NCBI RefSeq assembly: GCF_964213995.1
Contig: NW_027590121.1
Coordinates: forward strand, 62,001 to 126,000
DNA: 64,000 nucleotides
Source of the DNA: Mustelus asterias
Taxonomy: Eukaryota
Direction: 5' to 3'
Part shown: piece by piece, positions 9,505 to 64,000 of the stretch
How the letters are laid out: the number at the start of each line of letters is the position of its first letter
Numbering within the stretch: the stretch's first letter is position 1
Notes under the pieces: generated by a model
What the model was told of the DNA's origin: nothing
Databases searched by the model: none
What the model saw: only the letters and a program-made list of their open reading frames with translations
Program-made: the position numbers and the translations under genes

Positions 9505-10110
9505 CTGCTCTGAAAGCTTCCCCAACAAGTGGAATGTAGCTTAAGAGCGAGGGAGCTTTGTCCCGATTCTCACGGTATAGCTGCAATGAGTAGAAAGTAG
9601 CAGTGGTGGAATAGCTGAAATTGATGATCACAGAGTCGCCTTCGAACTGTGTCGCTGTAACCGGCCCCTGTGCGACCGAGTCTGCAGCAGGAATATCTGT
9701 CCTATTTCAGAAATAGAGAACATTTTGTTATCATTTTATTACAACCAAGATTATCAAATTAACAGAACATATTGTAGATGCAGGAAGCACACGGTTAAAA
9801 GTAAAAATACTCTGTGAGTAACATTAACAACAGATAATTGTTTAACTTGGGAGCTCCCAGTTAGGAGACCAGTAGCTGTGAAGAATGAGTAAAAGGTCCC
9901 AACATGTTCACAGAGCTGATGCTGGATCTGAACTCAGTGAGTTTGAGCTCAATAGTTTTAGGTAAGAGTTCAGAAGATGTGCAGTGACATCCGGTCCGGC
10001 AACCCGATTGGTCTATTCCTGACAGAGCGACAGGTGACAACCAATCGGTTCACTGCTCCTTTGTCCCATATTTCATCCAATCAACACGTAGTTTGTGACG
10101 TCAGTGAGCT
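9505..10110 (-). pseudogene. TCR alpha/delta-like V gene 'A1', 5' half: promoter, degenerate leader, intron, FR1-CDR2
   Basis: After acceptor ACAG (exon starts 9696) reads IPAADSVAQGPVTATQFEGDSVIINFSYSTTATFYSLQLYRENRDKAPSLLSYIPLVGEAFRA, colinear with 59781-59970. Promoter has TGACGTCA (10096-10103) and three CCAAT boxes. Confidence 0.8.
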
Positions 10111-10139
10111 GGGCAGATGAAAGACCAGCAGTGGCCACT

Positions 10140-10369
10140 TTGCCTTTGGAACATGTCCCTTCTACCCCTCTACCGCGGCTACGTTCGCGGCCAGGTGTCC
10201 CTGGAGAGGGAGCATGTGGTGTCCACGGGCGAGGTTGACGCTTTCCGCGCCCGCTGGGCACCGCAGGGGTTGGGGTGCATTATTGACCCTAATAATCACA
10301 TTTTAATTTGATGTTTTTTAAGTTTCCTTTGTGCTTTGATTTCTGTTCGGGCTGTTCCCCCTCCTTTTT
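10140..10369 (+). mobile_element. Non-LTR retrotransposon (Tx1/L1-like) 3' fragment
   Basis: ORF end LPLYRGYVRGQVSLEREHVVSTGEVDAFRARWAP followed by a T-rich 3' UTR. Family assignment is from recall only. Confidence 0.45.
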
Positions 10370-10516
10370 GGGGATTCGATTTTCTTCATCTTTAGACACT
10401 TGAAAAAATGAGGGGAATTTGACTATCCGTGAGCTGCGGCTGATTGACAGCGCGATGTATTTCTGCGGACTGAGATGTACAGTGACAGGAAGCTGAGGGA
10501 CCCTCGTACAAAAACA
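10370..10516 (+). pseudogene. TCR V gene 'A1', 3' half (FR3) with 23-RSS
   Basis: RFSSSLDT*KNEGNLTIRELRLIDSAMYFCGLR, then TACAGTG (10478-84), a 23-bp spacer and ACAAAAACA (10508-16). In-frame TGA and a mutated heptamer. Confidence 0.85.
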
Positions 10517-11216
10517 CTTCCGCAATGTGACAGGGTGTGTGGGATAGGGGCAGGGTGGGGAGAAACCTTGTCTTTCTAACCTATCAGCAGAATGTGCTGG
10601 TTTCAAATAAACGTCAATAAATTCCAAGCCGAGAGTAACAGATTTGGGGAAGGTTTCCGCTATTTCATTTACATCAAACACATTTCGGACATAATCCAAA
10701 CTGTCTGAGAGAATTTGCACAATTTTGTAAAATTTGCAATATAGACATGGGCATGGCCTGAGACCAGTAACAACCAGCAGCGTCTCTAATAGTTTACAAG
10801 GCAAGTAAAGTTGAAGGAAGGAGACAACCCGAGTGTAATATAAACAGGCACCGGATCCAGTGACATTAGGACAGACATATGGGCTCAGTGTAGTAATAGC
10901 TGAGACACTAGTTTGTGCCCTGTGAGAAGAGGCATGGTCTGGACAGTTGTTAGCCAAGGCATGGCCTTGTGTATTCGAAAAAAGGAGATTATCTAATAAA
11001 ATAATACATGAAACATAGTTTAATGTTACAATAGCAAAAAAAGAGCATAAAGTATTATAAATAGAGATAAAGTTCAGTACAGCACTTATACCGAACAACG
11101 CAATTATTTAATGATAAGACAGCTTTGGTGTAATCTTTTGAATTTCTTGCAAAAGTAATTCCTGAACAATAATGTTCTGAACTGAACTGAACATCACGGG
11201 GATGTTCTGAACTCTC

Positions 11217-11231
11217 CCACAAGGTGGCAGC
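11217..11231 (+). promoter_or_regulatory. Candidate CTCF site
   Basis: CCACAAGGTGGCAGC resembles the CTCF core CCASYAGRKGGCRS (one mismatch) and lies between convergent V genes. Confidence 0.55.
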
Positions 11232-11634
11232 AAACGCTCAGAATCTGCTGACATCGCAGCGCAATGTTTGGTTAATATTTTCATGTTATTTCACACTGAA
11301 GGACAATTAACACGTTTCATTTAATTATCAACATTTTCACCTGATGTAACCCGTCTCCATTGCGGATGATATTTTAAACCGAGTGTTACTTTCCTTTTAA
11401 CACATTTCACTGCATCGACAGAGCGGCAGGAGTTTGTGTTGTTCATGGTGGGCAGCAAATGTTGCAACCACGCAGTAAATGTAATAACCATGTAAAATCC
11501 CACCGTTTCTGGTGGGATTTCTGCTGATTGATCTTGGGATGTGTGCGCAGGAAACTATTGATGTGCCAGTGTGTGTGACCGGCTGTTATAAACAGCCCTC
11601 AGCAAAAACGGGCTGTGACCCAGAAACCTGTGGC

Positions 11635-12677
11635 CGTTTTTGTACGAGGACTAAACTCGTTCCCATCTCCGCGAGACTCTGTGCACGGTAATAGACCGCG
11701 GTGTCAGACAGCCGCAGATCCACGATTGTCAATCGGTACAACTTGTCTGACTGTTGGACTCTATCAGAAAACCGGTTCTGAGCGAAATCTGCTTTGAATT
11801 CAGAACTGCCGCCAGTGTCCCTGCGGACTGCAAACTCGGGCTGCCTGCCTGGGTACTGACGGTACCAGAATAAATAATCGGTATTGTCGGTAAAGGTGCA
11901 GCTTAAAGTGACATATTTTTCCTCTGGCGGTGTGAGTGAGGAATCCCGCTGAGTAACAGAATCTCCATCGCTCTGATCTGGAACACATGGTTAAAAAAAC
12001 GGAAATAATCAACTGAACTGAACTGAAAGTGACAATTAGTGGTCAGTATTACATTGAATAAAATGGAGTTCAGACCTTTGAAAAAAAACTTGCCACAAAA
12101 TTGATCTCTGTCGGTATTACATCCGAAAGAGCGCAATTCGCCTGACTTCATCTCACTCAGAGTTTTCATCCATTTCTTTCTCCATCATCTCTATATTTGG
12201 CTTCCCTTGTGGTCATGATGTACAGATTATAAACACACGCTGTGTAGGGAGACATGTCCACAATGCCCTTTTGCATCCATTTGGACCATTACATTTATCA
12301 TATTCAATGATCCAGAAGTGAAAACAACTCTGCAGCACTAACCTATTAACCACCTTTCAATCACATTTGAAGACCTCTGTCAGGCTGTCCCTCCAGCGTC
12401 GCTTTGCGAGATCAAATAACCTCAGCCAGCACAACTATTTCTGATAGCTATTTCATGTCACTTGCGGTATCACCTTCGAAAAGATTTTTTCTCATTTACT
12501 CCTGTGCCTTTACATCTTTTCCTAACAATCCTCATGTGGTCGGAACACGTTTCAATACAAGTGTTAAATAGACTATTCACTTTTCAAATCCAATTCTCTG
12601 AAATTAATCTTAGAAGTTTTAAATTTCTCACCGACGCTGAAAGCTGCCCAGAGCACAGCGAGAACGGGGATCCACAT
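11635..12677 (-). pseudogene. TCR alpha/delta-like V gene 'B': leader exon 12677-12632, V exon 11977-11674, 23-RSS
   Basis: Leader MWIPVLAVLWAAFSV-G|GTGAG (phase 1). Open V exon QSDGDSVTQRDSSLTPPEEKYVTLSCTFTDNTDYLFWYRQYPGRQPEF...RFSDRVQQSDKLYRLTIVDLRLSDTAVYYRAQS (Cys104->Arg). RSS CGCGGAG-23-ACAAAAACG. Confidence 0.88.
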
Positions 12678-12769
12678 CGCTGCTGCTGTGTCAGAACGGT
12701 GCAGAATAGAGATTTGCAAAAGAGCAAATGTCACCTGCTGCACGACAACACAGACTCAGACCACATTTC

Positions 12770-12779
12770 TGATGTCACT
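12770..12779 (-). promoter_or_regulatory. TCR V-promoter CRE decamer AGTGACATCA
   Basis: Matches the AGTGAYRTCA decamer, about 90 bp upstream of the leader ATG of V 'B'. Confidence 0.6.
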
Positions 12780-13289
12780 TCCTGCAGGGTGTCACACGGA
12801 TGGAGCTGTCGGAGTTGCCTCTCACCAATTTGATGTTTCTTAACCAGGGGTACGTGTTTATATAGGGGAACGCAAACATAACGCCATATCCCACTGATCA
12901 TAGGTAAAGGTTTCTGAGTGCAGACAGCTGGATATCCAAGATATATAAGCGGGAAAATCACAAATATGCGCTCCCACACTAACACAACAAAAGCGATAAT
13001 TCAACGACCACCTAAAGATACAATGACCAGCAAAGGTCTATGAAGTGACGTATAAGAGCTAGTAAAAGGGATTATGAAAGGAGACTTGCAAAGCGGATCG
13101 AGATCAATAAGATAAATATTGGTTACATAAAGGAAAAGAGGGGATCAGGAGCAATTTCAGTCCATTGGAGACTGAAAGTGGTGATATTGTTATTGACTGT
13201 GGGAAAAGGGGATCCGTAGTTGCCCTTTAGAATATGGCGCTGAGCTGCTGACTTGCACCGCTGCTGTCCGAATTACACAAATAGAAATC

Positions 13290-14577: not shown

Positions 14578-14712
14578 TGGTTCGAATTGGAACTTTCCAC
14601 TGCGGGCAAACGGGGCCAGTTGGTTATTGAAAACACGGAGAGCGCGGACGCTCTGTATTACTGTGCGATACAGCCCACACTGAGGAAAGACGCTAGTCAC
14701 TGTACAAAAACC
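14578..14712 (+). pseudogene. TCR V gene 'C', 3' fragment with RSS
   Basis: FELELSTAGKRGQLVIENTESADALYYCAIQP, then CACACTG (14676-82), a 21-bp spacer and ACAAAAACC (14704-12). Confidence 0.8.
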
Positions 14713-14974: not shown

Positions 14975-15770
14975 AATCAGACATTTGGTCTATGGCCAAA
15001 TACAGAAAGACCTGGACAATATTCAGGTTTGGACTGATAAGTGGAAGCAACGTTCAGGTCACACAAGTTCCAGGCAATGACCATCTCCAAAAAGAGAGGA
15101 CCTGATGAACTTTCCTTGATATTCAAAGGCATTACCATCGCTGAATCCTCCCCCTGCTCTCCCCTTCCTCTCCCCCACCCCCAACAACATCCTGGGAGTT
15201 GACCGAAAACTGAACTGGACCGAGGAATATGAATATCGTGGCTACCGGAGCCGATCAAAGGTTAGGAATCCTGTGGTGAGTAAATCGCCTCGTGACTCCC
15301 GAAAGCCTGTCCGCCACCTACAAGGTGCAAGTCAGGGGTGTAAATGGAATGCTCCATACTTGCTGGATCAGTGCAGCTCCAACAACACTCATTATGCTCG
15401 ACCAGATACAGGACAGGGCAGTCCGCGTGATTGCGACCCATTCCATAAACATCTCTTCCAGTCACCACCGACGAACAGTGGCAGCTGTGTGCAATATCTA
15501 CGGATATACTGCAGCAACTCAACAAGGATTTTTAGGCAGCACAATCCGAACACATGAACACTGCCATGTAGGAGGACAAGGGCAGCTTTCACATGGGAAC
15601 ACCTCAATCTAGCGGTTCCCTTCCAATTATTCCACATCCTTACTTTGAAATATATCGCTGTTCCTTCACGGTCAATGAGTCAACACCCTGGACTCCCTCA
15701 CTAACAGCACAGTCGGTGTACCTGCACCTCGGGACCGCAACGCTTCAAGAAGGCAGCTCACTACCACACA
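14975..15770 (+). mobile_element. Degenerate CR1-clade LINE 3' fragment
   Basis: Q.DLDNIQVW.DKW and YK.QVR motifs typical of the post-RT region. Multiple frameshifts. Confidence 0.65.
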
Positions 15771-15777
15771 ATACACC

Positions 15778-16005
15778 ACGGATTGTCCCGGATTTACAAT
15801 AACAGTCGTGTTGCTGGGTAAGTCTCTGTGGCAGTTATTCTACATCTCATTTGTTAAATACGGCAACAGATTTTGATCCGTTTTGCATTTCGTTTCAGGA
15901 ACGAGTGCCGAGGAGTCGGTGTCCGTGGGCTCATTTGAGTTAACGATGCTGAAAGAACAGCCTGTAATTTTCTGCCATACTTACTCCACTTCTGAGTCCA
16001 TCCTC
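15778..16005 (+). pseudogene. TCR V gene 'D', 5' fragment: leader (start ACG), 81-bp intron, FR1-CDR1
   Basis: CACC-ACG-G...(T)DCPGFTITVVLL-G|GTAAGT (15817/18). Acceptor TTTCAG (15898), then TSAEESVSVGSFELTMLKEQPVIFCHTYSTSES. No WYRQ or RSS follows. Confidence 0.65.
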
Positions 16006-17262
16006 AGCTCATGTTTTTTTGTTTATTACATAAATTGCGGCATGGGAAAATCAGCAATATTCCAGCCCCCACTGTCCAAACCCCCTGCCAGCAGAAAGCA
16101 CTGGATATTTTGCTCTGTGTGTTTTCTTAGAAATGGTGAAGAGTAAATATTCAATATTTTGATTGATACCCAGTTCCGTTCACATTCAACAATAACTTGA
16201 TTTCGGAAACATCGGAGCAGTGAGTTTTGATAATGTTTCTGCCCCGTGACAGTGACAGTGATTTTTCTAATCAGCTGACCATCGTCATTTTAGCCATTGT
16301 CTTCCTTCAGGTCCGCCACCCGAAAGACATGTTCCTCATTTTTTAAAAATCTCCGTTTAATTCCAGATTTGTCACATGCCAGCGAGCCCATTGTCCTGAA
16401 AACAATGTCTCTGAACCATTGGACCACCCGGGCTCCGCCATCACCAGCTCAGTGTTGCCTTTTCCATCATTCCTTGCGTCAGATAATCCATCCTCCCTTG
16501 TAGTCTGTGACGAACCATATCTTCTGCCATTTTTAAGAAGTGACCCCGATTTACAATCTGAAAATGCAGAGAAAACTCAGCAGACTAGTTGAGATTTAAC
16601 AAATATATGAATAATATAACTCTTCCCTTAGTCGGCAATGAAAAGGATTTGGAAATATTTCTGCCCAGTTTCCAGCCATGGGAGGCGGACGTGATAACTG
16701 CAGTGGAATGTTTGCTGTCATTGGTTGAACACATCACTGGTGTTAGATCCAGAAGGGGCCATTTTGCAGGATAAGTTTGTGGTGAAAGCGGTCTGGTGTG
16801 AAAATTAAAATAACAAAAAGGTCATGAAAAAAGCAATTGTAAAACACGCTGTAATCTGCTGCTCTGGCGGTTAGAGTTTGACACTTTCGCTGCTGTGTTG
16901 ATTGCAGGGCAGGAAATGAAGATTTATTGCTCTCCTCCAACCACGAAAACAGTTATTTCCCGGGAGAACACAGAAATCCCAGTCTCGCCTTGTATCCTAT
17001 TATTTCTGAAGTGAATACCCTGAACAAATTCAACAGCAAGTCATGGTGTCCTTTCTGGGAACCAGACAAAGTTAAGGACAATTTAAATGGTGCCAGCGCT
17101 TCACTGCAGTTCATTGCGTTTCTAACTGGAGATGATCGTTGTTTGTTACAGAGTTCAGGATCATCTGATTCGGTGAAGATTTCCTGCTGGCCCATCTCCA
17201 CGGATTCTGGAATATTTCAGTATCAATACAAGAAAAGGACATGATTGCTACGTCTGCCTCGT

Positions 17263-17344
17263 GGTAGTGTGGCCGAGCGGTCTAAGGCGCTGCATTTGGG
17301 TTCTAATCTCTTCGGGGCCGTGGCGTCGAATCCCACAGCTACCA
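17263..17344 (+). pseudogene. tRNA-Leu pseudogene (anticodon position TGG)
   Basis: Paralogue of 22805-22886 with broken anticodon stem and T-arm. Confidence 0.85.
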
Positions 17345-19115
17345 GAATTGATTTCAATTTTTGTCCTTACAGTTGAAGTCCAACAGCTCACATTGAATGC
17401 AGGAGTGTGTGCAGTGTGTTTTTGACAGACGCCTTCGTAAGAACAGGATGTGGCTCTCGACTCATCGATCGACAGTTCCGACGCGCCACAGCGAAAAACC
17501 ACACCTATCTCCTCAGAAGACAAACACGGGACACGGCCGACAGAGTGCCCTTCGTCGTCCTGTACTTCCGCGGAGTGGAGGAGCTACAACATCTTCTTCG
17601 GAGCCTTTAACATGTCATTGATGAATACGAACATCTCGCCAAGGCCATCCCCACATCCCCAAAACCAGACAGCAATATTTCCAAATGCCATTCAATACAG
17701 AGTGAGGGAAAAGTTTCATAATTTATGTTTTTGCTAAATGTTAACTGATATACTGAGTATTTCCAGCATTTTCTGATTGCGAAGTCAGGAGTCACTCGGT
17801 AAAAACAACAAAAGTGAAGGTCTGTAGCAGAGAGCAAGGTAGGATGGATCAACGGACAAAGGAATGCTGGACAAAGCAATATTGAGCAGGTGATGCTGGA
17901 GGCCGGGTGGTCTAGTTTTTCAGAGTGAAGGCTTTCACCGCCAGGGCCCAGGCTCAATGACTGGGGACAAATTGTGAAAATAGAATTTGTGATGAAAATA
18001 TTGTCTCTTTCTCATTCCTGATCAACTAATCACAATTGCTGTTTAAAAGCAGCATGCCAGGACGAGTAACCTCTTCCTGTGCTGTAATGTTCTATAATTG
18101 TTTCATTTTCATCCACACTGCTGCTGCATTTAAAGTTTAGTAGTTTATTTTTTTATTGCCACAAGTAGACTTACATTAACAGTGCATGAAGATACTGTCA
18201 AAATCCCCTAGTCGCTTCACTCCGGCGCCTGTTCGTGGACACTGAGGGAGAATTTAGCATGGCCAATGCACCTTTCCAGCAAGTCTTCGGGCTGTGTGGA
18301 AGGAGTGGAGCAAGTTAGTGTGGATGCTGGAATTGGAAACAAAAAGGGAAAATGCTGGAAAATCTCAGCAAGTCTGGCAGCATCTGTAAGAAGAGAAGAG
18401 AGCTAACGTTCCGAGTCCAGATCACCCTTTGTCAAAACTGGGCGGAGTGGAGTTGCTCCGATAGAGAATACAAACGGGAACACAGGCTGAATGGTTGTCT
18501 GCTGATATAAACAACAGATCGCAAACATTGAGTCTGCAGTCCCGGCCCAGGGGATAGATTGGGACTTTCTAACTGAGGCTCAAATCTTGTCATGTCCGCT
18601 TCCCGTCATTCCTCATTGTGACTTATTTTTATTGAAAGTTATTCAAAATAAAGCAATGAATACGGAGATGATCAACTCATTGCAAATCTCTCACATCAGC
18701 GTCACTGAGGGTCCAGTGATCAGGATCAGCGCCGTGACGCGGTTTAGATTCCCAGTCACGGAGTGAATAACTTTTTGTTCAATTCTTCATTTAATGAAAA
18801 CACGCCTCAGAGCGTCTGTGAAGGGAGCAACATCTAAATCTTTCAGCCGGATGAACTTGCATCTCAGTTGGAAAAGTCAGAGATGTAACACTAACGATAA
18901 ACTCTGAAGAAGATTCACATGGCACGCACAACATACATGTCAGATACACACACAGCACACATGTCAAATCATGTCACTTTCAAGTTCCGTCTTTTAACCT
19001 CCTGCTCTCCACCTCAGACATTTCCACATTCATCAAAAATCTCCAACCTCAAACCCCATCCTGTTCCTTAATCCATTGATAATGCTACCCGTACCGCAAG
19101 CACTTTGCAGCATTT

Positions 19116-19188
19116 GGCTCCATAGCTCAGTGCTTGGAGCACTGGTCTTATAAACCAGGAGTCGCGAGTTCAATTCTCACTGGAGCCT
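19116..19188 (+). tRNA. tRNA-Thr(TGT)-type body with TAT anticodon; probable pseudogene
   Basis: GGCTCCATAGCTCAG...CTGGT-CT-TAT-AA-ACCAG...TGGAGCCT. D-loop GG mutated and one T-stem mismatch. Confidence 0.75.
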
Positions 19189-21088
19189 GCCGACAAAACT
19201 TTGCTAATATGAGCTGTCGGGAAAAGGCAGATCGAATGGGAGGCAAAACAGAGTGCTTTTATGGGTCGAGGGGCAGATTGGGTGCAACTTTGGAAAACAA
19301 AAACATATTCTCATTCGTGAAAAAATAGAAAGAGCAGAACATACTTGACGAGCTAAAAAATGTAAATATTGATATTAAGAATAGAATAGATGCGTTGTCC
19401 TCGGAATGCATGAAGGTGAAGCAGATAATTGGAAGGGAAATTACATTTTGGTCTTTCTTGCCGGCAGACTGGAGTTCAAGAATAACAAGGTGTTTCTGCT
19501 GTTGCATTGGGTTTTGTTGAGACCAGGTTGAATATTCTGTGCAGATGTGATAGTCACATTTAAAAAGGGATATGCTTGCATTGGAAGCGGTAAAGAGAAG
19601 TTTCACCAGATTGCTCCCTGGGGTGAGGGAGTTGTCCTGTGATGAAATTCTCTGGAGTATAGAAGAATAAGAGGCGATCTATTTAAACCTACACAGTTCT
19701 GATTAGGTTTGACAGGATGGAGACTGAGATATTGTTTTTTCTGCTGGTCGGGAATCTAACCCACTGCGGCACAGATAAGGGGCTGCTCATTTAGTGCGAA
19801 GATAAGGAGCAATTACTTCACTCAAAGGGCGAGAATCTTTGGCATTCTCTGTACCTGACAGTTATGTATGCCCCCTCATCGAGCACATTTAACGTTGGGA
19901 TAAACATGGTTCTGATCTCTTGAAGAATTTAGCGATATGGGGAGCTGGTGGAAAAACAAAGTTGCAGCCCAACATCAGCCATGATGGTATTGAATGGTGG
20001 AAATCTCGATGGACCGAGTGGTCTGCTCCTCCTCCTATGATTCATGTTAGAATAAAAACAGAAAGGACTGGAAGTTCTCAGGAGGGCTTGCAACAAATGT
20101 CGAGCAAAACAGAGAGTTAAGTTTCCGAATTCAATATGACTCTTTTCAAACCAGTAGCCAAGTGTGAGTTATAACAACTAGCACAAGGTCCAGACTGCGA
20201 ATTGAATTGGATCCAGGCAGCCTTGAATTTAAACTGCTGCAGGATTTATGTTGGAAAATTGTTCAGGAAAGTGAGCTGCCAACTGAAAGTTTGGAGGTTT
20301 GAGAGCACCCCGAGCCAAATAGACTCCCTCTATTTCTGTTTCTACTTATATTCCGACATAGATATTCTTTGTATCCTTCTGCAATAGGGAAATATTGTCC
20401 AAACTTTGCCAGTCTTGCTAATATTCGCTAAATTGTCATACAAATCGATCGATGAATATTCATTTCAAATAAAACGAGATACATTAGGTCATGCTGTTGT
20501 ATATTTCCAACCTATTAGAAATATGGGATTCACAGTAACTGAGAGAAATTGATGCTGTAGTTGCAGATATAGAACTGGAACGCACCATCACACCGAGTGA
20601 ATCCACTGTCTGTTTAAATGTTGATCAGTGAAAATTTCAATCATCCTCTGCTGTGTAACACACGGCCACTGAGTCAATGAGCAATAGCCAGTCAAAAAAA
20701 TCCTGTATCAGTCAATCTTTCTCGCAACTTTCAAACATGTTGTTATTCTCTGTACCATTTGCCATTGAGGTATATGAAGAAGTGAACGCAGTTTGTGATG
20801 GTAAAAGATGTGTTCATCCCTTCTGGGAAATGAATCACATTGATGCACAGAGGAACACACACCGACACCGAGAGTCACAGAGGGGTGACGAGACACAAAC
20901 ACATGTCACTAACTGGGTTCAGTTTTGTTCCATTTCTGGCTGGGGTTTTGGTGAATTCTCGCTGATGAACAGAAATGAAGGAACGTGGAAGTGAAACAGG
21001 AAAAACAGATGGGAATATTTGAAAGATTTTGATTCCATTGAACGAATAATTAATCCTGCTGTCACCTAAAGGAATGAATGCGGAGCAG

Positions 21089-24541: not shown

Positions 24542-24574
24542 CCTTGGGCATTTACTGGAGGAACGCTTTTTAAT

Positions 24575-52641: not shown

Positions 52642-53598
52642 ATGGCTGGTCAGGTGATGTGCTTGAGCTGCTTGATGTGGGAGCTGGCAGATCCCATTGC
52701 GAGCTACAGCGACCACATCTGCAGTAAGTGTTGGCTGCTTGAAAAACTCCGGCTCAGAGTTGATGAGCTGGAGTCTGAGCTTCAAACACTGAGGCACATC
52801 CGGGAGGGGGAGACTTACCTGGACACTGTGTTTCAGGAGGCAGTCACACCTGTCAGAGTAAATAGTTTAAATCCTGCCAGTGGCCAGGGACAGCAGGGTG
52901 TGACTGCAAGTCAGGCAGGTAAAGGGAACCAGCAGTCAGGAACTCAGGAGCCTCAGCCCTTGACCCTGTCCAACAGGTACGAGGCACTTGCTCCCTGTGT
53001 GGATGGCAAACAGGGCTGCAGGAAGGATGAGTCAGCTGACCAAGGCACCATGGTTCAGCAGGCCATTCAAGGGGAGGAAGTAAATAGGCAAGTTGTAGTT
53101 GGAGGGGATTCTATTATCAGGGGGATAGATAGTATCCTTTGTGAGCAGGATAGAGTGTCCCGCATGGTATGTTGCCTGCCCGGTGCTAGGGTGCGGGACA
53201 TCTCTGACCGGCTTGAAAGGATACTGGAGAGGGAGGGGGAGGATCCAGGTGTTGTGGTCCATGTTGGTACCAACAACATAGGCAAGTCTAGGAAAGAGGA
53301 TCTGTTTAGAGATTATAAAGAGCTAGGATTCAAATTAAAAAACAGGTCCTCAAGGGTCATAATCTCCGGATTACTGCCCGAGCCACGTGCTAATTGGCAT
53401 AGGGAGACAAGAATAAGGGAAGTTAACACGTGGCTGAAAGAGTGGTGTGGGAAAGAGGGGTTCTTTTTCATGGGACACTGGCATCAGTTTTGGGGCAGGG
53501 GGGACCTATACCGTTGGGATGGTCTCCACCTGGACCGAGCTGGGATCAGTGTTCTGGCGAAGAGAGTAAATAGGGTGGTCAATAGGACTTTAAACTAG
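52642..53598 (+). CDS. CR1 ORF1p: Cys-rich zinc knuckle, coiled coil, SGNH esterase
   Basis: CxxC...CxxC, heptad leucines, and SGNH blocks GDS / PGA / GTNN / DGLH. Confidence 0.92.
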   Translation: MAGQVMCLSCLMWELADPIASYSDHICSKCWLLEKLRLRVDELESELQTLRHIREGETYLDTVFQEAVTPVRVNSLNPASGQGQQGVTASQAGKGNQQSGTQEPQPLTLSNRYEALAPCVDGKQGCRKDESADQGTMVQQAIQGEEVNRQVVVGGDSIIRGIDSILCEQDRVSRMVCCLPGARVRDISDRLERILEREGEDPGVVVHVGTNNIGKSRKEDLFRDYKELGFKLKNRSSRVIISGLLPEPRANWHRETRIREVNTWLKEWCGKEGFFFMGHWHQFWGRGDLYRWDGLHLDRAGISVLAKRVNRVVNRTLN

Positions 53599-53732
53599 AG
53601 ATTGGGGGGGAAGGGAAAGTCAGGGAACCAAGAGGTGAAGGAATCAGTGGGAAGCGTAGCTGTTTAGGATTACAAAAAATCACGAAAAGACAGCGCTCAG
53701 GAGAGGTTACGATAGTCCCCATCTCACAAAAT

Positions 53733-56609
53733 ATGACACAGTGTCTGGAAAGGCTCAGTAAACCAAGGTCCACCACACTACGAAAACAAAAAGGGACGGT
53801 CAATAGTGAATTAAAGGTGCTATATTTAAATGCCCGCAGTGTCCGGAACAAGGTAGATGAGCTTGTGGCCCAGATTGTGACTGGCAGGTATGATGTGGTA
53901 GGCATCACAGAGACGTGGTTGCAGGGGGTTCAGGACTGGCAGTTAAACATCCAGGGATTCACAACCTATCGAAAAGACAAAGAGGTGGGTAGAGGGGGCG
54001 GGGTTGCCTTGTTAATTAGAAATGAAATTAAATCAATAGCACTAAACGACATAGGGTCAGACGATGTGGAGTCTGTGTGGGTAGAGTTGAGGAACCACAA
54101 AGGCAAAAAAACCATAATGGGAGTTATGTACAGGCCTCCTGACAGTGGTCAGGACCAGGGGCACAAAATGCACCACGAAATAGAAAGGGCATGTCAGAAA
54201 GGCAAGGTCACAGTGATCATGGGGGATTTCAATATGCAGGTGGACTGGGTAAATAATGTTGCCAGTGGATCCAAAGAAAGGGAATTCATTGAATGTTTAC
54301 AGGATGGCTTTTTGGAACAGCTTGTGATGGAGCCCACGAGGGAACAGGCTATTCTGGACTTAGTGTTATATAATGAGCCAGACGTGATAAAAAATCTTAA
54401 AGTAAGGGAACACTTAGGAAGCAGTGATCATAATATGGTAGAATTCAGTCTGAAATTTGAAAGAAGGAAGGCAGAATCAGATGTGAAGGTTCTACAGTTA
54501 AATAAAGGTAATTACAGGCGCATGAGGGAAGAACTGACAAAGATCGACTGGAAGCAGAGCCTAGTGGGAAAGACAGTAGAACAGCAATGGCAGGAGTTTC
54601 TGGGAGTAATTGAGGACACAGTGCAGAGGTTCATCCCAAACAAAAGAAAGGTTATCAGAGGGGGGATTAGGCAGCCATGGCTGACAAAGGAAGTCAGGGA
54701 ATGCATCAAGGCAAAAGAGAGAGCCTATAATGTGGCAAAGAGTAGTGGGAAGTCAGAAGATTGGGAAGGCTATAAAAACAAACAGAGGATAACAAAGAGA
54801 GAAATAATGAAGGAGAGGATCAAATATGAAGGTAGGCTAGCCAGTAACATTAGGAATGATAGTAAAAGTTTCTTTAAATACATTAAAAACAAACGGGAGG
54901 CAAAAGTAGACATTGGGCCGCTCCAAAATGACGCTGGTAATCTAGTGATGGGAGACAAGGAAATAGCTGAGGAACTTAATAAGTACTTTGCGTCAGTCTT
55001 CACAGTAGAAGACATGAGTAATATCCCAACAATTCAGGAAAGTCAGGGGGCAGAGTTGAATATGGTTGCCATCACAAAGGAGAAAGTGCTAGAGAAACTA
55101 AAAGGTCTGAAAATTGATAAATCTCCGGGCCCAGATGGGCTACATCCTAGAGTTCTAAAGGAGATAGCTGAAGAAATAGTGGAGGCGTTGGTTATGATCT
55201 TTCAAAAGTCACTGGAGTCAGGGAAAGTCCCAGAGGATTGGAAAATCGCTGTTGTAACCCCACTGTTCAAGAAGGGAACAAGAAAAAAGATGGGAAATTA
55301 TAGGCCAATTAGCCTAACCTCAGTTGTTGGCAAAATTCTAGAATCCATCGTTAAGGATGAGATTTCTAAATTCTTGGAAGTGCAGGGTCGGATTAGGACA
55401 AGCCAGCATGGATTTAGTAAGGGGAGGTCGTGCCTGACAAACCTGTTAGAGTTCTTTGAAGAGATAACAAATAGGTTAGACCAAGGAGAGCCAATGGATG
55501 TTATCTATCTTGACTTCCAAAAGGCCTTTGACAAGGTGCCTCACGGGAGACTGATAAGTAAAATAAGGGCCCATGGTATTCGAGGCAAGGTACTAACATG
55601 GATTGACGATTGGCTGTCAGACAGAAGGCAGAGAGTTGGGATAAAAGGTTCTTTCTCAGAATGGCAACCGGTGACAAGTGGTGTCCCGCAGGGTTCAGTG
55701 TTGGGGCCACAGCTGTTCTCTTTATATATTAACGATCTAGATGACGGGACTGGGGGCATTCTGGCCAAGTTTGCCGATGATACAAAGATAGGTGGAGGGG
55801 CAGGTAGTATTGAGGAGGTGGGGAGGCTGCAGAAAGATTTAGACAGTTTAGGAGAGTGGTCCAAGAAGTGGCTGATGAAATTCAACGTGGGCAAGTGCGA
55901 GGTCTTGCACTTTGGAAAAAAGAATAGAGGCATGGACTATTTTCTAAACGGTGACAAAATTCATAATGCTAAAGTGCAAAGGGACTTGGGAGTCCTAGTC
56001 CAGGATTCTCTAAAGGTAAACTTGCAGGTTGAGTCCGTAATTAAGAAAGCAAATGTAATGTTGTCATTTATCTCAAGAGGCTTGGAATACAAAAGCAGGG
56101 ATGTACTTCTGAGGCTTTATAAAGCACTGGTTCGGCCCCATTTGGAGTACTGTGAGCAATTTTGGGCCCCGCACCTCAGGAAGGACATACTGGCACTGGA
56201 GCGGGTCCAACGGAGATTGACACGGATGATCCCAGGAATGGTAGGCCTGACATACGATGAACGTCTGAGGATCGTGGGATTATATTCATTGGAGTTTAGG
56301 AGGTTGAGGGGAGATCTAATAGAAACTTACAAGATAATGAACGGCTTAGATAGGATGGACGTAGGGAAGTTGTTTCCATTAGCAGGGGAGACTAGGACGC
56401 GGGGGCACAGCCTTAGAATAAATGGGAGTCACTTTAGAACAGAGATGAGGAGAAATTTCTGCAGCCAGAGAGTGGTAGGTCTGTGGAATTCATTGCCACA
56501 GAGGGCTGTGGAGGCCGAGACGTTGAGCGTCTTCAAGACAGAAATTGATAAATTCTTGATTTCTCGAGGAATTAAGGGCTATGGGGAGAGAGCGGGTAAA
56601 TGGAATTGA
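53733..56609 (+). CDS. CR1 ORF2p: APE endonuclease + reverse transcriptase (958 aa)
   Basis: YLNARS, ITETW, GDFN, SDH (EN); NYRPISL, DFQKAFDKV, GVPQGSVLGP, FADD (RT). Confidence 0.97.
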   Translation: MTQCLERLSKPRSTTLRKQKGTVNSELKVLYLNARSVRNKVDELVAQIVTGRYDVVGITETWLQGVQDWQLNIQGFTTYRKDKEVGRGGGVALLIRNEIKSIALNDIGSDDVESVWVELRNHKGKKTIMGVMYRPPDSGQDQGHKMHHEIERACQKGKVTVIMGDFNMQVDWVNNVASGSKEREFIECLQDGFLEQLVMEPTREQAILDLVLYNEPDVIKNLKVREHLGSSDHNMVEFSLKFERRKAESDVKVLQLNKGNYRRMREELTKIDWKQSLVGKTVEQQWQEFLGVIEDTVQRFIPNKRKVIRGGIRQPWLTKEVRECIKAKERAYNVAKSSGKSEDWEGYKNKQRITKREIMKERIKYEGRLASNIRNDSKSFFKYIKNKREAKVDIGPLQNDAGNLVMGDKEIAEELNKYFASVFTVEDMSNIPTIQESQGAELNMVAITKEKVLEKLKGLKIDKSPGPDGLHPRVLKEIAEEIVEALVMIFQKSLESGKVPEDWKIAVVTPLFKKGTRKKMGNYRPISLTSVVGKILESIVKDEISKFLEVQGRIRTSQHGFSKGRSCLTNLLEFFEEITNRLDQGEPMDVIYLDFQKAFDKVPHGRLISKIRAHGIRGKVLTWIDDWLSDRRQRVGIKGSFSEWQPVTSGVPQGSVLGPQLFSLYINDLDDGTGGILAKFADDTKIGGGAGSIEEVGRLQKDLDSLGEWSKKWLMKFNVGKCEVLHFGKKNRGMDYFLNGDKIHNAKVQRDLGVLVQDSLKVNLQVESVIKKANVMLSFISRGLEYKSRDVLLRLYKALVRPHLEYCEQFWAPHLRKDILALERVQRRLTRMIPGMVGLTYDERLRIVGLYSLEFRRLRGDLIETYKIMNGLDRMDVGKLFPLAGETRTRGHSLRINGSHFRTEMRRNFCSQRVVGLWNSLPQRAVEAETLSVFKTEIDKFLISRGIKGYGERAGKWN

Positions 56610-57439
56610 AATCAACCATGATTGAATGGTGGAGTGGACTCGATGGGCCGAATGGCCTTACTTCCGCTCCTATGTCTTATGGTCTTATTGCTGGGAGTTT
56701 GATTATCTGCTGTCTGAAACCAAAATATTCAATATTTCGAGTGAAAAAGATGAACAAGGAAACACATCAGTGCCGAATATTCCAGCTGGATATTCACAGG
56801 AGAAAGTATGTTTTCTAACGCTACCAGTAGAAAGAACAGAGAAAGATCCATCTGGAAGAAACCCTCCAATCATTTGTAAATATATTTCAAATGTTGACAG
56901 GTTCCAACAGTCAGTTTCCATCACATTGAAGTCAATTGAAGGTGGGAGAAAGAGTCATAGAGTCATAGAACATGGAAACAGGCCCTTGGGCCCAACTTGT
57001 CCACGCCGCCATTTTTTTAAAACCCTAAGCTAATCCAAATTGCCGGCATTTGGCCCATATCGCTTTATACCCATCTTATTTTCAACATTTTCAACAAAAT
57101 ATTTTCAACCAAAACAGAATGGTTCAAAGTTCCAGAGTGAAATGTAACTTGATGTTACTTACATTAGTAGATTCAGGAAAGTCACACAAACATTTTCAGT
57201 CTGGAAACTTAAACCTGCCATTTCACTCTCAGGAACAGCCCAATTTTACAACAACCTCTGATTTTACAGCACGTTTGCAGTATTCAACATTGCTCTCCTG
57301 ACTCCGAACACAATTGCAAAGGAGCTTCTCTTCCGTGTCTCGGAGCTCTGAACCATGGAAGAGAGCGGCTCGCACACATTCCTTACACACATCAGGATTA
57401 ACCTCCAAGTTCAGTCCTGGGCGTGAGTCACTGCAGCAA

Positions 57440-58024: not shown

Positions 58025-58546
58025 CGCTCATTTGTGTGTGCCAGGAAGTGGCTGGAATCCCTTCCCACACTCAGAGAAGGTGAACGGCCTCTCCTTGGTG
58101 TGACGTTGTTGGTGTGTGAGCAGATCGGATGACTGAATTAATCCTTTCCCACTTTCCGGGTATATGAACCGTCTCACTCCAGTCTGAAGCTGTTGTTTTA
58201 TTCACAGATAGTTCTTGTTTTAAAGCTCTTTTCACAATCAGAACATTTAAAAGGACTCTGATCACTGTGATCAAGTTTATGCTTAGTGAGCTGGGATGAC
58301 TAAGCGAATCCTTTCCCACAAACAGAGCAGGTGACTGTATTCTCCTCAGTGTGAACTCATTCATGTGCCAGTAGGTCAGATGAGTAAGCAAATTCCTTCG
58401 CACATTTAAAACATCAGAACAGCTTCTCCCCAGTATGAACTTGCTGGTGTGTTGACAGAAGGGACAACTGATTAAATCCATCTCCACACTTCGAGACGGT
58501 GAATGACCTCTCCCCAGTTTGACTGCGTTGATCATTTCCCAGTTCA
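58025..58546 (-). pseudogene. C2H2 zinc-finger pseudogene
   Basis: CSVCGKGFA*SSQLTKHKLDH, FKCSDCEKSF and other fingers with stops and frameshifts. Confidence 0.85.
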
Positions 58547-59344
58547 AGGAATAAAGAGTATAAATAGGGAAAATATTTTAATTTAATATATTTTCCTTGA
58601 AGTTCTGTCTTTTTATTACAATGCCGTTTTAAGAGGATTTCAACAAGTTTATCAGTTCATTTGTTTTACTAGTATATGAAAAATAGAAAACCGCTCTCAG
58701 ACCTCACTGATTTCTATCCAAAGTGGAACCACAGGAAGAGGAGGCTCCACAAACATCCCCACTCTCAATGATGGGCTCCAGCACATCACGGCCGTGTTTT
58801 GTGTTTACTGACCCGGATGTGTTATCAATGGCTTCCCTGGTTCCCAAGGCTTGGAAAGACATTTTGGAAGGCATGAGTTCAAGAGAATAGCTGAAGGTCC
58901 AAGAAATGAAATGATCTGGACAGTTAGAAAGGAGAAAATAATAAAGATGAAGCATTGAGTGACAGTCAGTGACAGGTTAGCAATTAATCTGCTCCTATCC
59001 TGGAGAAATGAAGGAACTGACCCTGTGCCTGAAACAATATTAGTTCATTTGACACATATCGGAATATTCAAAAGCAGCAAGTTATGGAGATTATTAACGT
59101 CAGCATGAAGAAACTCCAGCTCTCAGATTGAACATTTTTCAGGTTTTGATGTGATTAATCTGGAATTAAAAGTGTAATGATGACCATGAAACCATTATCG
59201 ACTGTTGCAAAACCCCATCCGGTTCACTAATGTCATGGGGGAAGGAGATCTGCCGTCCTTAGCTGGTTTGGCCGACATGTGACTCCAGAGCCAGAGTAAT
59301 GTGGTTGATCCTTAAATGTCCTCTCAAATGGAGGGCAATTAAGG

Positions 59345-60124
59345 CTCCTCCGTCTGACGTCATGGATTGGTGAGCGAAGGCACTCTGAGCTGATTGGATG
59401 AAATGGAGGGTAATGAATCTGTGAGCTGATTGGGTGTCTCCCGCTGGCTCTGTCAGAAACGAGCCAATCGCTTGAGGCCGGATATTTCTCAACATTTTCT
59501 GAACCCTGAACTAAATATGGAGCTTGAACTCACTGAGTTCAGATCCAGCATCATCTCTATGAAGACTTTGTGTGTTAGTCTTTACCAGTTCCTCACAGCT
59601 TCAACTCTTTTAACTGTTCCCAAGTTGCACATTCTGCCGCTTGCTCGCGATACTGACATAGAAATCTTTCCATTGAACTGTTTTTCCATCTATTTGTAAT
59701 ATATTCAATTACCTAAATCCCGTTGTTTCTGACAAAGTGATAAGAAAAATTAAGTTTCGTATTTCTATTCTTTTTTGCAGGTGTGAGTGCTGCAGGTTTT
59801 GTCTCCCAGGGTCCGGTTACAGCGATGAGGTTTGAAGGAGAATCGGTGTGTATTGATTTCAGCTATTCGACCACAGCGGCTGCATATTCTTTTCAGTTTT
59901 ACCACCAGGACCTGGATATAGTCCCCACATTCTTGATCTACATCCCCAGTTACGAAGATGTTGTCAGAGCAGAGGGCGTGGGGGCTCGATTTTCTGCATC
60001 TTTGAACACTTCGAAAAAGCAGGGAAATTTCACCACGTGAGCTGCAGCTGTCTGACAGCGCGGTTTATTACAGCGGACTGAGAGACACAGTGACCAGAAG
60101 CAGAGGAAGCCTCGTGCAGTGTGA
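59345..60124 (+). pseudogene. TCR V gene 'A2': promoter, leader (ATG 59559), V exon 59781-60085, RSS heptamer
   Basis: MKTLCVSLYQFLTASTLLT; TTTTGCAG|; VSAAGFVSQGPVTAMRFEGESVCIDFSYSTT...RFSASLNTSKKQGNFT/RELQLSDSAVYYSGLR (2-nt frameshift). CACAGTG (60086-92) and 23-bp spacer present, nonamer deleted. Confidence 0.85.
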
Positions 60125-61295: not shown

Positions 61296-61444
61296 ATAGT
61301 TATATAGTCTTATATAACATAACACGTGATAAGGAAAGGGTGATTTCGGACAGCCACTTGTCCCTCTGGAATACTAGACTAGCTGCAGAACCACAATATT
61401 ATCGTTCCAGTACCCGCTGCAGTAAACAAACAAACATGGTGAGA

Positions 61445-61461
61445 CACCGCCATCTGGTGGC
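61445..61461 (-). promoter_or_regulatory. Candidate CTCF site
   Basis: Minus strand GCCACCAGATGGCGGTG. Confidence 0.6.
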
Positions 61462-61987
61462 TATGTGAGGCTAATTCCTGGAAAATCACCGAATTCTCAA
61501 GTTCCTGAAATATGTTGTTACAAGACTCTGCCGCATTATTCTTGCAAATATTGTTATTGTTGCAATGCAATGAACGTATACATGAGAGCCAATTCCACTT
61601 TTATCTTAAACACTGCCGATTTATTGTAATGCCTCAGCCACTCTGGATCACGAAGCTTGCTTTAGCGATATGAATCCGCCAAGGTCCCAATGAAATCCAG
61701 ATTTTAAAACAACAACACATGCCAATTATGTAAATATACCCCCTGTTCACACATTCGTTCGAGATTTAAATGGTACTGTTTCAATTTTGGTTTCCTCGGT
61801 TGGCAGCAAACTAGGAAAATAATGTCGGAATTAATATTAAACAGTAAGCGTAACAAAAGTGAAATTATGAAAAAGGCATAAGCATCAGGAATAATAAAAT
61901 AAAAACAATAACATCCGTAATAATCTGGCATGGTAATATTTTAGTATGCTGCAGTATTCGAGAATAATTGGGTTTACGCAGATCATT

Positions 61988-62002
61988 CCACTAGGTGGCG
62001 CT
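61988..62002 (+). promoter_or_regulatory. Candidate CTCF site
   Basis: CCACTAGGTGGCGCT, a consensus match. Confidence 0.65.
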
Positions 62003-63478
62003 CCAGAAACTTTTATTTGACCGAAAGTACGTAAAACTGCAGTTCACCGCTCTCACATGTGACAGCTGTAAATTACAGGAAATAATGTTGTGGTGTGACA
62101 CTTCACTGTGAACAGTGGTATATTTAGGACAAGCACCCGTCGATGAATTGTCAATGTTATGGCAAAGGAGACTTGGAGAGTGAACTTTGCCAGCCATTGC
62201 ATTTCATGGTGCACGGTCACAGGGTTTACTGAAGGAAAAAATCAGCGCAATGTTTCTAATTAATAGCGTTGATCAGTGAGGAGGACAGCAAAAGAGAGAG
62301 AGGGAGGGTATGTCTGTGAGAGAGAGGTCGTGCGGGTTCCCATGCTTGTGATGTAAGATTTTGGTTACGATTGTTCACAAACACAAAGTATCCAGAAAAT
62401 ACAAGGACTTGAAAATCTCTTCATTTCGCTATGAGCGCCAGAGAGACAACTCTTTGTGGCGGTGATCCACAATGCCCCGTGTCCTCTGTATAAATAATGT
62501 TTCAAACAGCACACACAGCGGCTGCACTGGAAATAAACTTCCATCATTTGTAAAGTGCTTTCAGATGTCCAGAATCCATCAAGGGCGCGAGACCAGTAAA
62601 AAAAACTTTTATTTCCCTTGAAGAGTAATAGTTTATTCCAAAGGTTAAACATGTTATCCGGCCGCTTCCATCAGGACGCGCAAAGGTTGCTGCTTTAAAT
62701 TTCCGTTTCTTTATTTTAATCCATGATTGGGTGGATGAACAGTCACTAACTCCCGGGATATCCAGGATTCAGTCTTCAGTCTATTCCGAGATTCTTTCCT
62801 CCCCACAAGACACACGGATTCTTTCAGGAAAAACAATGCCAGAAGGTACTTGGGTGACGCTGATGGAAAGTGACTGAGGCATCGAGAGGTTGCTCCTATC
62901 TATCTCTCAGTTATCAGGCTGATCACCTCGATTAACCGTTGCATCAATCCGGCATGTGTAAATATAAACTATATATAAATTGTCAAAACAGTGTAAATAC
63001 CTCAGAATTAACAATATACGCGCTAATCTACACACAACGCTTGCCAGGCTAGGTTCCGTTGTTATTTTTACCGCCGATGAAGCAGAAGATTTGAGGAGAC
63101 TCTAGTCACAGGATCCATTCAGATGCGGCCGTGCACTCCGCGGCGGATGGTGAATTGTCAAAGGTGCCGAATGAGATGTTAAATCGAGGGCACCGACTGC
63201 CTTCTCAGATGGACGTGATAGTGCGCAAGGACACTATTTCGAAGAAGAGCAGTAGAGTTGCTCTAGTCAATAACTACCCAAGAATAAACGTCCTGAAACA
63301 GGCTATGCATAATAATGTTGTTTGAAGGACCATGGTGGGGGCCAAATTGGCTTGTGTTTTTTTCATTCATCGTATGAGTGACATTAAACACATTGTGTGA
63401 CATCCGGTAAATCGGCATATAAATATTCTATAATGATTCACTCAACTGCCACATTGGAATGTTGAGTAATGCTCTGAC

Positions 63479-64000
63479 AGTTTTTGTACAGGTTCAGCCC
63501 ATTTCTGTGTCTCTGTGGGTCTCAGTGCGCAGTAATACACCCCGGAGTCTGCCAGCTCTATCTTAGACACATTCAGCGGAATGGTGCTCTTCATAAAGTC
63601 AAACTCTGCAGAGAAACGGTCCCCTCGGAATCTTTCTGTGTTCCCGCTGTACCTACTTTTCTGATACAGAAACTCCATGGACCCGCTGGGATACTGACGA
63701 TACCAGAATAGAATACGTGAATTTTACCAGAAAGCCTAATGTCTGCAGTACAAATCTTGAGAAATACTTAGCTAGTCTGACAAACTCCGGTAAGATGTTA
63801 CTTGAGATTTGCTGGCATTGTATTAAAATCAGAAGGGAAGATTAGATAATTTTTAAATGTTGACACTTTCTCTTATTTTCTGGCTCATCGCTGGGTCGTT
63901 GCTGGTTGCAGCTGTAAAGTTACAGAACAACTGACCGTCACGTCCTTCACTCACTGTGACTGCAGCTGGTGTCTGTGTAACAGAGTCTCCTCCACAATAT
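63479..64000 (-). pseudogene. TCR alpha/delta-like V gene 'E' with 23-RSS, CDR1 interrupted by about 180 bp; leader beyond the right edge
   Basis: CGGDSVTQTPAAVTVSEGRDGQLFCNFTAATSND [63894-63715] ILFWYRQYPSGSMEFLY...RFSAEFDFMKSTIPLNVSKIELADSGVYYCALRP, then CACAGAG-23-ACAAAAACT. Confidence 0.88.

What the first reader, a model, noticed from the sequence alone, without database searches (positions are those of the whole stretch)
9505..64000. TCR alpha/delta-like V segments interleaved with a tRNA cluster, ZNFs and a GPR139-like gene, in mixed orientation and without J/C
Seen: six V genes or fragments (9.5-10.5, 11.6-12.7, 14.6, 15.8, 59.3-60.1, 63.5-64 kb) with leader/intron/V/23-RSS architecture and CRE-type rather than octamer promoters. 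They sit among more than 25 tRNA-derived sequences, three ZNFs and a GPCR. Most are invisible to the ORF track. Known: TCR alpha/delta V use 23-RSS, and mammalian TRA/TRD and extended MHC regions neighbour GPCR, tRNA and ZNF clusters. Inference: either the distal edge of the shark TRA/TRD locus or a V-orphon field co-amplified with Pol III/ZNF/GPCR cassettes.
Basis: partly seen in the sequence, partly recalled or inferred. Interest (0 to 1): 0.75.

Follow-up and report, generated by a model that had tools for sequence, protein, structure and literature searches.

The report
Shark multiplies its TCR-delta gene cassette
The window holds only dead T-cell-receptor variable genes carried along in recently duplicated DNA, but tracing them shows that this shark's assembled genome has 19 intact copies of the delta-chain joining-and-constant unit, where other sharks are reported with at most one, which would likely give these T-cell receptors an antibody-like multi-cluster layout.

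Summary
The V segments, tRNA cluster, ZNFs and GPR139-like gene are real. The six V pieces are five genes, all broken; one is split by a local 874-bp inversion. No J or C lies in scaffold bases 1-266,000. The block is a recent segmental duplicate (96-97% copies on three other scaffolds) inside the shark antigen-receptor complex, where scattered, mixed-orientation alpha/delta Vs are already published (PMC12227049) and were noted earlier in this scan. The new result lies outside the window. The assembly holds 19 TCR-delta (D)-J-C cassettes, all with three open C exons, 88.8-99.9% identical (at least 10 loci even if haplotypes are doubled). It also holds two TCR-alpha J-C loci, neither preceded by C-delta. 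The window's scaffold starts 5.5 kb behind the place where a paralogue carries a C-delta, so the nearest J/C is probably a delta cassette just off the scaffold end. Six cassettes carry V already joined to D-delta, three sharing one junction (germline). One carries an IgM VH-D1 joined to D-delta, unconfirmed in other samples. Expression is untested.

The parts
9501..10374 (-). V1, 5' half (CRE at 10096, decayed leader, intron, FR1-CDR2) inside an 874-bp inversion specific to this copy
   Evidence: C88 and C124 paralogues carry the same V uninverted
10375..10516 (+). V1, 3' half with in-frame stop; RSS TACAGTG-23-ACAAAAACA (heptamer lacks CAC)
11635..12780 (-). V2 pseudogene: intact leader, open V exon, second Cys changed to Arg, heptamer decayed to CGCGGAG
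   Evidence: intact family member at C89:22.4 kb
14585..14712 (+). V3, 3' fragment beside a retroelement; RSS CACACTG with a 21-bp spacer (23 in the C88 paralogue)
15760..16110 (+). V4, weak leader/intron/V relic without RSS
   Evidence: best tblastn E 0.04
17262..44312 (.). Cluster of tRNA genes and pseudogenes (Leu, Ile, Val, Gln/His-like) mixed with tRNA-derived SINE heads; a 1.1-kb tRNA-Leu unit is repeated at about 80%
19116..19188 (+). tRNA-Ile(TAT), intact-looking (62 bits)
22804..22887 (+). tRNA-Leu(TAG), intact-looking (60 bits)
50092..51008 (+). Open main exon of a GPR139-like class A GPCR, with a predicted splice acceptor at its start; 13 copies at 96-100% in the assembly
52434..56681 (+). 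Full-length LINE (esterase-type ORF1, 1007-aa endonuclease-RT ORF2), absent from the C71 and C124 paralogues
58046..58557 (-). C2H2 ZNF pseudogene (stops)
59355..60124 (+). V5 pseudogene: CRE at 59355, leader, intron, frameshifted exon, second Cys changed to Ser, heptamer CACAGTG with destroyed nonamer
63479..64000 (-). V6 pseudogene: stop-bearing insertion of about 150 bp in CDR1; intact FR2-FR3; RSS CACAGAG-23-ACAAAAACT; leader lies beyond the window
   Evidence: a family member is joined to D-delta at C71:11.02 Mb
4438..5286 (+). C2H2 ZNF array, open frame (outside the finding's range)

Best explanation
The window is a recently duplicated stretch of a shark antigen-receptor complex whose five TCR alpha/delta V genes are pseudogenes, and the same assembly holds 19 intact TCR-delta (D)-J-C cassettes that were likely spread by the same segmental duplications. 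Shown: the V decay; the duplication of the V-tRNA-GPCR-ZNF block; the 19 cassettes with open C exons; two alpha J-C loci with ZNFs, not C-delta, upstream; IgM clusters on the same scaffolds. Inferred: a 20th-type cassette sits just beyond the start of this scaffold, about 70 kb before the window. Inferred mechanism: intact Vs near the window (C89:22.4, 139.5, 163.7, 196.5 kb) join by RAG, through deletion or inversion, to whichever cassette or alpha J array is within reach, so mixed orientation costs little. The tRNA, ZNF and GPCR genes are passengers of the duplications, not parts of the receptor system. RAG-type joining in germ cells, known for shark Ig clusters, likely fixed V-to-D-delta joins in some cassettes.
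For: C-delta search: 19 Ig exons plus 18 separately listed TM exons with a database delta C. The same 19, and no others, with the genome's own exon, all 115 candidates scored. The database chain's best PDB hits are human TCR delta chains. All 19 cassettes have three C exons with GT-AG and an open frame, giving 15 distinct proteins; each has 4-7 J. 11 of 19 have an unjoined 12-RSS/D/23-RSS. A 10.4-kb segment is 88.8-99.94% identical between copies, median 96.3%. Three copies lie at 7.14, 11.04 and 12.27 Mb of one 20-Mb scaffold. In another sample of the same organism label, a contig differs from the C71 exon by 34 letters and 2 gaps, as the divergent C96 copy does, beside near-identical contigs. 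Alpha: 35 J at C71:18.37-18.41 Mb and 147 J on C546, C exons 84% identical, ZNF clusters upstream of both. C89:1-26,703 matches C71:7,147,292-7,174,004 at 98.8%, starting 5.5 kb behind a C-delta TM exon. Complete IgM cluster at C89:1.497-1.514 Mb. An identical V-D junction occurs in C436, C119 and C96, which differ by up to 2.8%.
Against: 16 of the 19 cassettes are on scaffolds of 2.9 Mb or less, and 10 pairs exceed 99.5% identity, so some may be the second haplotype (floor 10 loci). No cassette was found on C89 itself, so its link to the window rests on homology only. No RNA run was laid, so use of several cassettes is untested. The C138 IgM/delta junction is not bridged by any listed contig in four other runs; both unjoined forms are seen there instead (15 pieces not shown). 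C850 is 99.95% identical to C71:12.25 Mb downstream of its junction but only 81-91% upstream, as a somatic join caught in assembly would also look. Four primary papers on the nurse shark locus could not be read.
Confidence: 0.8

Rival explanations
1. Ordinary shark locus: one translocon with Vs scattered over megabases, and the extra C-delta copies are assembly duplicates (haplotigs, mis-resolved repeats).
For: Published layout in four elasmobranchs (PMC12227049 text and Table S1). Many copies are on small scaffolds; 10 pairs above 99.5%.
Against: Divergence up to 11%, 15 distinct proteins, three copies in different surroundings on one scaffold. The divergent lineage is present in an independent run. 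Neither alpha J array has C-delta upstream.
Confidence: 0.08
2. The cassettes are real but mostly silent by-products of a recent amplification; one or two serve the whole delta repertoire, and the window's region is an inert orphon-like field.
For: Copies are young (median 96%), so open frames need not reflect selection. Variable codons in the Ig exon are mostly amino-acid changing. Only 4 of about 22 V hits in 264 kb look intact.
Against: 19 of 19 keep all splice sites and frames while most neighbouring Vs and 6 of 13 near-identical GPCR copies carry stops. Every cassette keeps at least one J with a good 12-RSS.
Confidence: 0.3
3. The V-to-D joins in single copies (C850, C401, C71:11.02 Mb, C138) are somatic rearrangements from lymphocytes that entered the assembly, not inherited genes.
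For: C138 junction not seen in four other runs. C850 looks like a V from elsewhere on a near-identical twin of a C71 cassette. Extra letters at the C138 and C401 junctions could be TdT additions, which are rare in germline Ig joins (PMC2193156 passages).
Against: C138 and C401 have no unjoined twin closer than 97.6% and 98.5%, although the unjoined form should dominate the reads. The C436/C119/C96 junction is shared and so inherited. Three of the four runs laid are shallow.
Confidence: 0.3
4. The window is an assembly chimera, or its Vs are non-rearranging IgSF genes.
For: The scaffold is small and repeat-rich; the 874-bp inversion is seen in this copy only (1 of 3 compared).
Against: The same order of V, tRNA, GPCR, ZNF and V recurs on C124, and in part on C71 and C88. 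The Vs carry RSS remnants and no J-like G strand, and relatives are joined to D-delta.
Confidence: 0.03

Closest known systems
Elasmobranch antigen-receptor complex, AgRC (PMC12227049; read: text parts 1-4 of 8 and Table S1; supplementary PDF not read)
   Same: TCR alpha/delta Vs of both orientations lie between IgM clusters over about 9 Mb (great white shark chr27, Table S1), with NAR-TCR pairs and Ig-like Vs. Same picture on C71 and C89.
   Different: The paper calls TCR alpha/delta a translocon, and its table lists at most one alpha and one delta constant per species. Here there are 19 delta cassettes and 2 alpha J-C loci, none adjacent. The table lists no tRNA, ZNF or GPCR genes.
Shark Ig miniclusters with germline-joined segments (PMC2193156, passages; PMC6795676, passages)
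   Same: Many units each with its own D, J and C; some joined in the germline with trimmed ends and loss of the RSS.
   Different: Here the chain is a T-cell receptor; each cassette has 4-7 J and several upstream Vs, and a large shared V pool lies between cassettes.
Newt TRA/TRD separation (PMC12698447; passages and first part of the Discussion)
   Same: TRD detached from TRA, two TRA loci, a germline-joined V.
   Different: Newts have one or two TRD clusters, no D and no Ig Vs; here 19 cassettes with D, embedded among IgM clusters.
Marsupial and monotreme TCR-mu clusters (PMC7615758, abstract only)
   Same: A delta-related TCR in cluster organisation, expanded by lineage-specific duplication.
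   Different: TCR-mu is a separate chain type beside a normal TRA/D locus; here the delta chain itself is multiplied and no nested delta was found.
Somatic IgM/IgW-to-TCR-delta trans-rearrangement in nurse shark (seen only as cited in PMC12227049 and PMC6795676)
   Same: IgM VH and D1 joined to D-delta by the 12/23 rule (C138).
   Different: Here the join stands in an assembled genome; whether it is inherited is unresolved.

Membership tests
TCR alpha/delta V gene segment | V-set exon nearer to alpha/delta Vs than to beta, gamma or IgH Vs | tested here: met
   Best blastp hits of V1 (via paralogue), V2, V5, V6 are alpha/delta-type Vs; none groups with TRB or TRG rows (deep branches weak). V3 and V4 were too short or decayed to include.
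TCR alpha/delta V gene segment | Split leader and 3' 23-RSS | tested here: met
   Leader and intron in V1, V2, V4, V5, V6; RSS or its remnant in V1, V2, V3, V5, V6
Functional TCR alpha/delta V | Open frame, both Cys, Trp, and CAC heptamer with 23-bp spacer and nonamer | tested here: not met
   0 of 5 genes in the window pass
Functional TCR alpha/delta V | Found in rearranged transcripts | not testable with these tools
   The one run search, made with the C-delta exon, listed no RNA holder
Elasmobranch AgRC | IgM clusters linked to alpha/delta Vs | tested here: met
   VH-D-D-J-C cluster at C89:1.497-1.514 Mb; C1-set hits along C71
Elasmobranch AgRC | TCR alpha and delta constant genes in the same linkage group | tested here: inconclusive
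   Met for C71. For C89 only by 97-99% paralogy with C71.
Elasmobranch AgRC | PSMB5 linkage | tested here: inconclusive
   A proteasome gene with large exons lies on C185 among Ig C exons; its subunit identity was not tested and C185 is not joined to C71 or C89
Elasmobranch AgRC | UrIg2 linkage | not tested
   No search made
Canonical TRA/TRD translocon | One D-J-C delta unit directly upstream of the alpha J array | tested here: not met
   ZNF clusters fill 125 kb upstream of the C71 array and 56 kb upstream of the C546 array; no C-delta on C546, nearest on C71 is 6 Mb away
Cluster-type antigen receptor genes (shark Ig type) | Many units, each with its own D, J and C | tested here: met
   19 cassettes
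Cluster-type antigen receptor genes (shark Ig type) | One V and one J per unit | tested here: not met
   4-7 J and several Vs per cassette
Cluster-type antigen receptor genes (shark Ig type) | Rearrangement confined to the unit | not testable with these tools
   Needs repertoire data; joined copies use Vs of different families
Cluster-type antigen receptor genes (shark Ig type) | Some units joined in the germline | tested here: met
   One junction shared by three diverged cassettes; four single junctions unresolved
V orphon field | Outside the antigen-receptor locus, with no usable J/C in cis | tested here: inconclusive
   No TCR J/C on C89, but IgM in cis and a scaffold start just behind a homologous C-delta site

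The most novel reading that the evidence does not exclude
In this shark lineage the TCR-delta chain has moved from a single translocon to an Ig-like multi-cluster system: ten or more expressed D-J-C cassettes, detached from TCR-alpha and interleaved with IgM clusters, draw on a chromosome-wide V pool, and germ-cell RAG activity has fixed pre-joined receptors, including an inherited IgM-VH/TCR-delta hybrid gene.
Probability: 0.4. Interest if true: 0.88.

Novelty: new variant of a known kind. Interest (0 to 1): 0.66.

Why it matters
The window itself is ordinary for a shark antigen-receptor complex. The cassette multiplication is not. Reviews read here state that shark TCR genes are translocons and only Ig genes are clusters. 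A living vertebrate with ten or more intact delta cassettes, none nested in the alpha locus, makes three open questions testable. First, how a gamma-delta T cell keeps to one receptor with dozens of targets. Second, whether deletion of delta by alpha rearrangement matters for lineage choice. Third, whether cluster and translocon layouts interconvert by ordinary segmental duplication. An inherited IgM/delta join would be a direct intermediate for the origin of Ig-like Vs in delta loci.

Tried and rejected
Pfam PF09291 (mammalian-type alpha constant) found nothing in the genome; a strict RSS-plus-J pattern found nothing. Both were too strict: the J and C genes were then found with shark proteins. 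Run search with the C-delta exon: no RNA holder listed. C138 junction: no listed contig bridges it in X1-X4; three runs are shallow and 15 pieces were not shown. Depth in run X24 (33 million letters) covers much of the J-C intron, which hints at high copy number, but contig depth is not a copy count. Long frames beside the tRNA-Leu units match no Pfam family (0 of 4 below E 0.2) and are treated as non-coding. PDB sequence search does not name the GPCR. First splice check of the C exons failed through a string error of mine and was redone. Literature searches that found no report of multiple shark delta constants; the library lacks most subscription journals. Not held: PMC1458790, PMC3222143, PMC7039070 (also by DOI) and a 2021 Immunogenetics review whose DOI was recalled. 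PMC11372145 and PMC5931798 (passages only) gave nothing on copy number. The supplementary PDF of PMC12227049 was not read and may bear on novelty. Earlier-notes look-ups by sequence and by words returned nothing.
Full report
Setting. The window is G000:C89:62,001-126,000, on a 2.83-Mb scaffold of a 3.68-Gb assembly. Database relatives of its genes are from sharks and rays. [quoted passage not shown]

What the window holds. V-type pieces lie at all six places named. They make five genes, none functional. V1 is one gene: its promoter, leader and 5' exon half lie in an 874-bp inversion (9501-10374) that paralogues on C88 and C124 lack, and it has a stop in either orientation. V2 has an open exon but Arg for the second Cys and a heptamer without CAC. 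V3 is a 3' stub with a 21-bp spacer. V4 is a weak relic. V5 is frameshifted and has lost its nonamer. V6 has a good RSS but a stop-bearing insertion in CDR1. By blastp and a 30-row tree, V1, V2, V5 and V6 are nearer to alpha/delta Vs than to this genome's beta, gamma or IgH Vs; deep branches are weak. A full CRE precedes V1 and V5, and no octamer is near a V. tRNA-like hits number 25 against 0 in four controls; 8 are SINE heads; ARAGORN and Rfam passes 8. The GPCR exon is open and nearest to clusters named GPR139. One ZNF pseudogene lies inside the finding's range and two ZNFs lie upstream. No J or C occurs in C89:1-266,000.

The block is a segmental duplicate. 47,141, 31,546 and 22,608 of the finding's 54,496 bases recur at a mean 96-97% on C124, C88 and C71, in the same order. 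The GPCR has 13 copies at 96-100%, 6 with a stop. V2 alone gives 150 scored matches of 1,456 candidates, on both strands of C71 (7-19 Mb) and dozens of small scaffolds. This argues against a chimera and explains the mix of genes: they were copied together. A full-length LINE at 52.4-56.7 kb is private to this copy.

The region belongs to the antigen-receptor complex. C89 carries a complete IgM cluster at 1.497-1.514 Mb, and Ig constant exons lie on many of the same scaffolds as the Vs. PMC12227049 (text parts 1-4 of 8, Table S1) describes this complex in four elasmobranchs, with alpha/delta Vs of both orientations between IgM clusters. So scattered Vs without nearby J/C are known. Earlier notes of this scan reached the same view for other windows.

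Locating J and C gave the unexpected result. A shark alpha constant found two loci: C71:18.42 Mb with 35 J, and C546 with 147 J; their C exons are 84% identical. Both arrays start at a homologous first element and have ZNF clusters upstream, not C-delta. A delta-type constant, whose full chain best matches human TCR delta chains, found 19 loci. The genome's own exon found the same 19 with all 115 candidates scored. Each has 4-7 J; all 19 have Ig, connecting-peptide and TM exons with GT-AG and an open frame, giving 15 distinct proteins. A search for the D 3' RSS found 18 of these cassettes and one further site on C973 without a C hit; the C3311 contig ends before its D. Over 10.4 kb the copies are 88.8-99.94% identical, median 96.3%; 10 of 171 pairs exceed 99.5%. 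Two haplotypes can at most double the count, so the floor is 10 loci. Three copies lie on C71 in different surroundings. A run from another sample holds a contig with 34 differences and 2 gaps from the C71 exon, the same distance as the C96 copy, beside near-identical contigs. Upstream of the cassettes examined lie NAR-type V-D-J plus supporting V pairs and Ig-like Vs. Table S1 of PMC12227049 lists at most one delta constant per species.

Link to the window. C89:1-26,703 matches C71:7,147,292-7,174,004 at 98.8% and begins 5.5 kb behind that copy's TM exon; C123 shows the same. I infer that a delta cassette lies just beyond the scaffold start, about 70 kb before the window. No cassette was found on C89 itself.

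Pre-joined cassettes. 11 of 19 have an unjoined 12-RSS/D/23-RSS. Six have a V fused to the D with both inner RSS gone and trimmed ends. C436, C119 and C96 share one junction while differing by up to 2.8%, so that join is inherited. C401 shows two bases palindromic to an untrimmed D end. In C138, 1.67 kb matching an IgM VH-D1 at 91.5% is joined to a trimmed D-delta, followed by 97% delta sequence; the 22- and 12-bp spacers obey the 12/23 rule. Against: no listed contig bridges that junction in four other runs, which show both unjoined forms. C850 is 99.95% identical to a C71 cassette only downstream of its junction. These single joins may be recent, polymorphic or somatic. Germ-cell RAG joining is described for shark Ig light chains (PMC2193156, passages).

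How it likely works. Shown: decayed Vs in the window, 4 intact-looking Vs among about 22 hits in 264 kb, many intact delta cassettes, detached alpha loci. Inferred: intact Vs of either orientation join by deletion or inversion to a reachable D-delta or J-alpha, so orientation is loosely constrained. Inferred: tRNA, ZNF and GPCR genes are passengers of the duplications. Untested: expression of any cassette, range of joining, exclusion.

Novelty. The window's own arrangement is known in kind. Multiplied delta cassettes have partial precedents: newts separate TRA from TRD and have up to two TRD clusters (PMC12698447), and marsupial TCR-mu is clustered (PMC7615758, abstract). A review states that cartilaginous fish TCR genes are translocons (PMC6795676). 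Ten searches of the held library found no report of many delta constants in a shark. Four primary nurse shark papers were not available, so this is not proof of absence. Verdict: new variant of a known kind, interest 0.66, earned almost wholly by what lies outside the window.

Noticed in passing
L189:1-10000 (G000:C6:115,030,001-115,040,000; matches from 115,021,956 to at least 115,041,553): A 37-bp satellite, 271 copies in 10 kb, whose unit reads as a near-consensus 23-RSS (172 units match CACAGTG-23-ACAAAAAC exactly). All 100 listed of 105 exact matches of one variant are in this array; no V or J in the 10 kb read. Possible RAG target far from antigen-receptor loci.
   Followed up: partly
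L109:6860-7670 (G000:C138:217.66-218.47 kb, minus strand): Intact IgM VH and D1 joined to a TCR D-delta in front of an intact J-C delta cassette; not bridged in four other runs.
   Followed up: partly
L042:1239-1338 (C71:7,091,239-7,091,338); also C71:12.2297 Mb, C87:2.1808 Mb, C90:1.131 Mb: The supporting V-delta of NAR-TCR pairs is followed by 2-4 tandem 23-RSS at about 61-bp spacing.
   Followed up: no
L184 and L185-L186 (C24:52.55-52.83 Mb; C22:52.99-53.11 Mb): TCR beta-like V segments of the same families on two different large scaffolds, with D and J seen on C24; possibly a second beta locus.
   Followed up: no
L100-L140 (C546:137-237 kb): An alpha J array of 147 segments built from repeated units, four times the size of the C71 array.
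   Followed up: partly
G000:C973:96,866-96,895: A D-delta 3' RSS on a scaffold without a C-delta hit: a possible 20th, truncated cassette. Not fetched.
   Followed up: no
window 3030-3340: A 5S rRNA copy (79 bits) directly followed by a tRNA-derived SINE head at 3142.
   Followed up: no
window 52434-56681: Full-length LINE with both frames open, absent from two paralogues; a 1.3-kb piece is 98.7% identical to a copy at C71:14.107 Mb, so the family is recently active.
   Followed up: partly
L194 (C71:19.36 Mb) and L021 (C89:1,489.8 kb): A family of short V segments lacking most of CDR2, with perfect 23-RSS, in a 2.46-kb tandem array downstream of C-alpha on the opposite strand.
   Followed up: no
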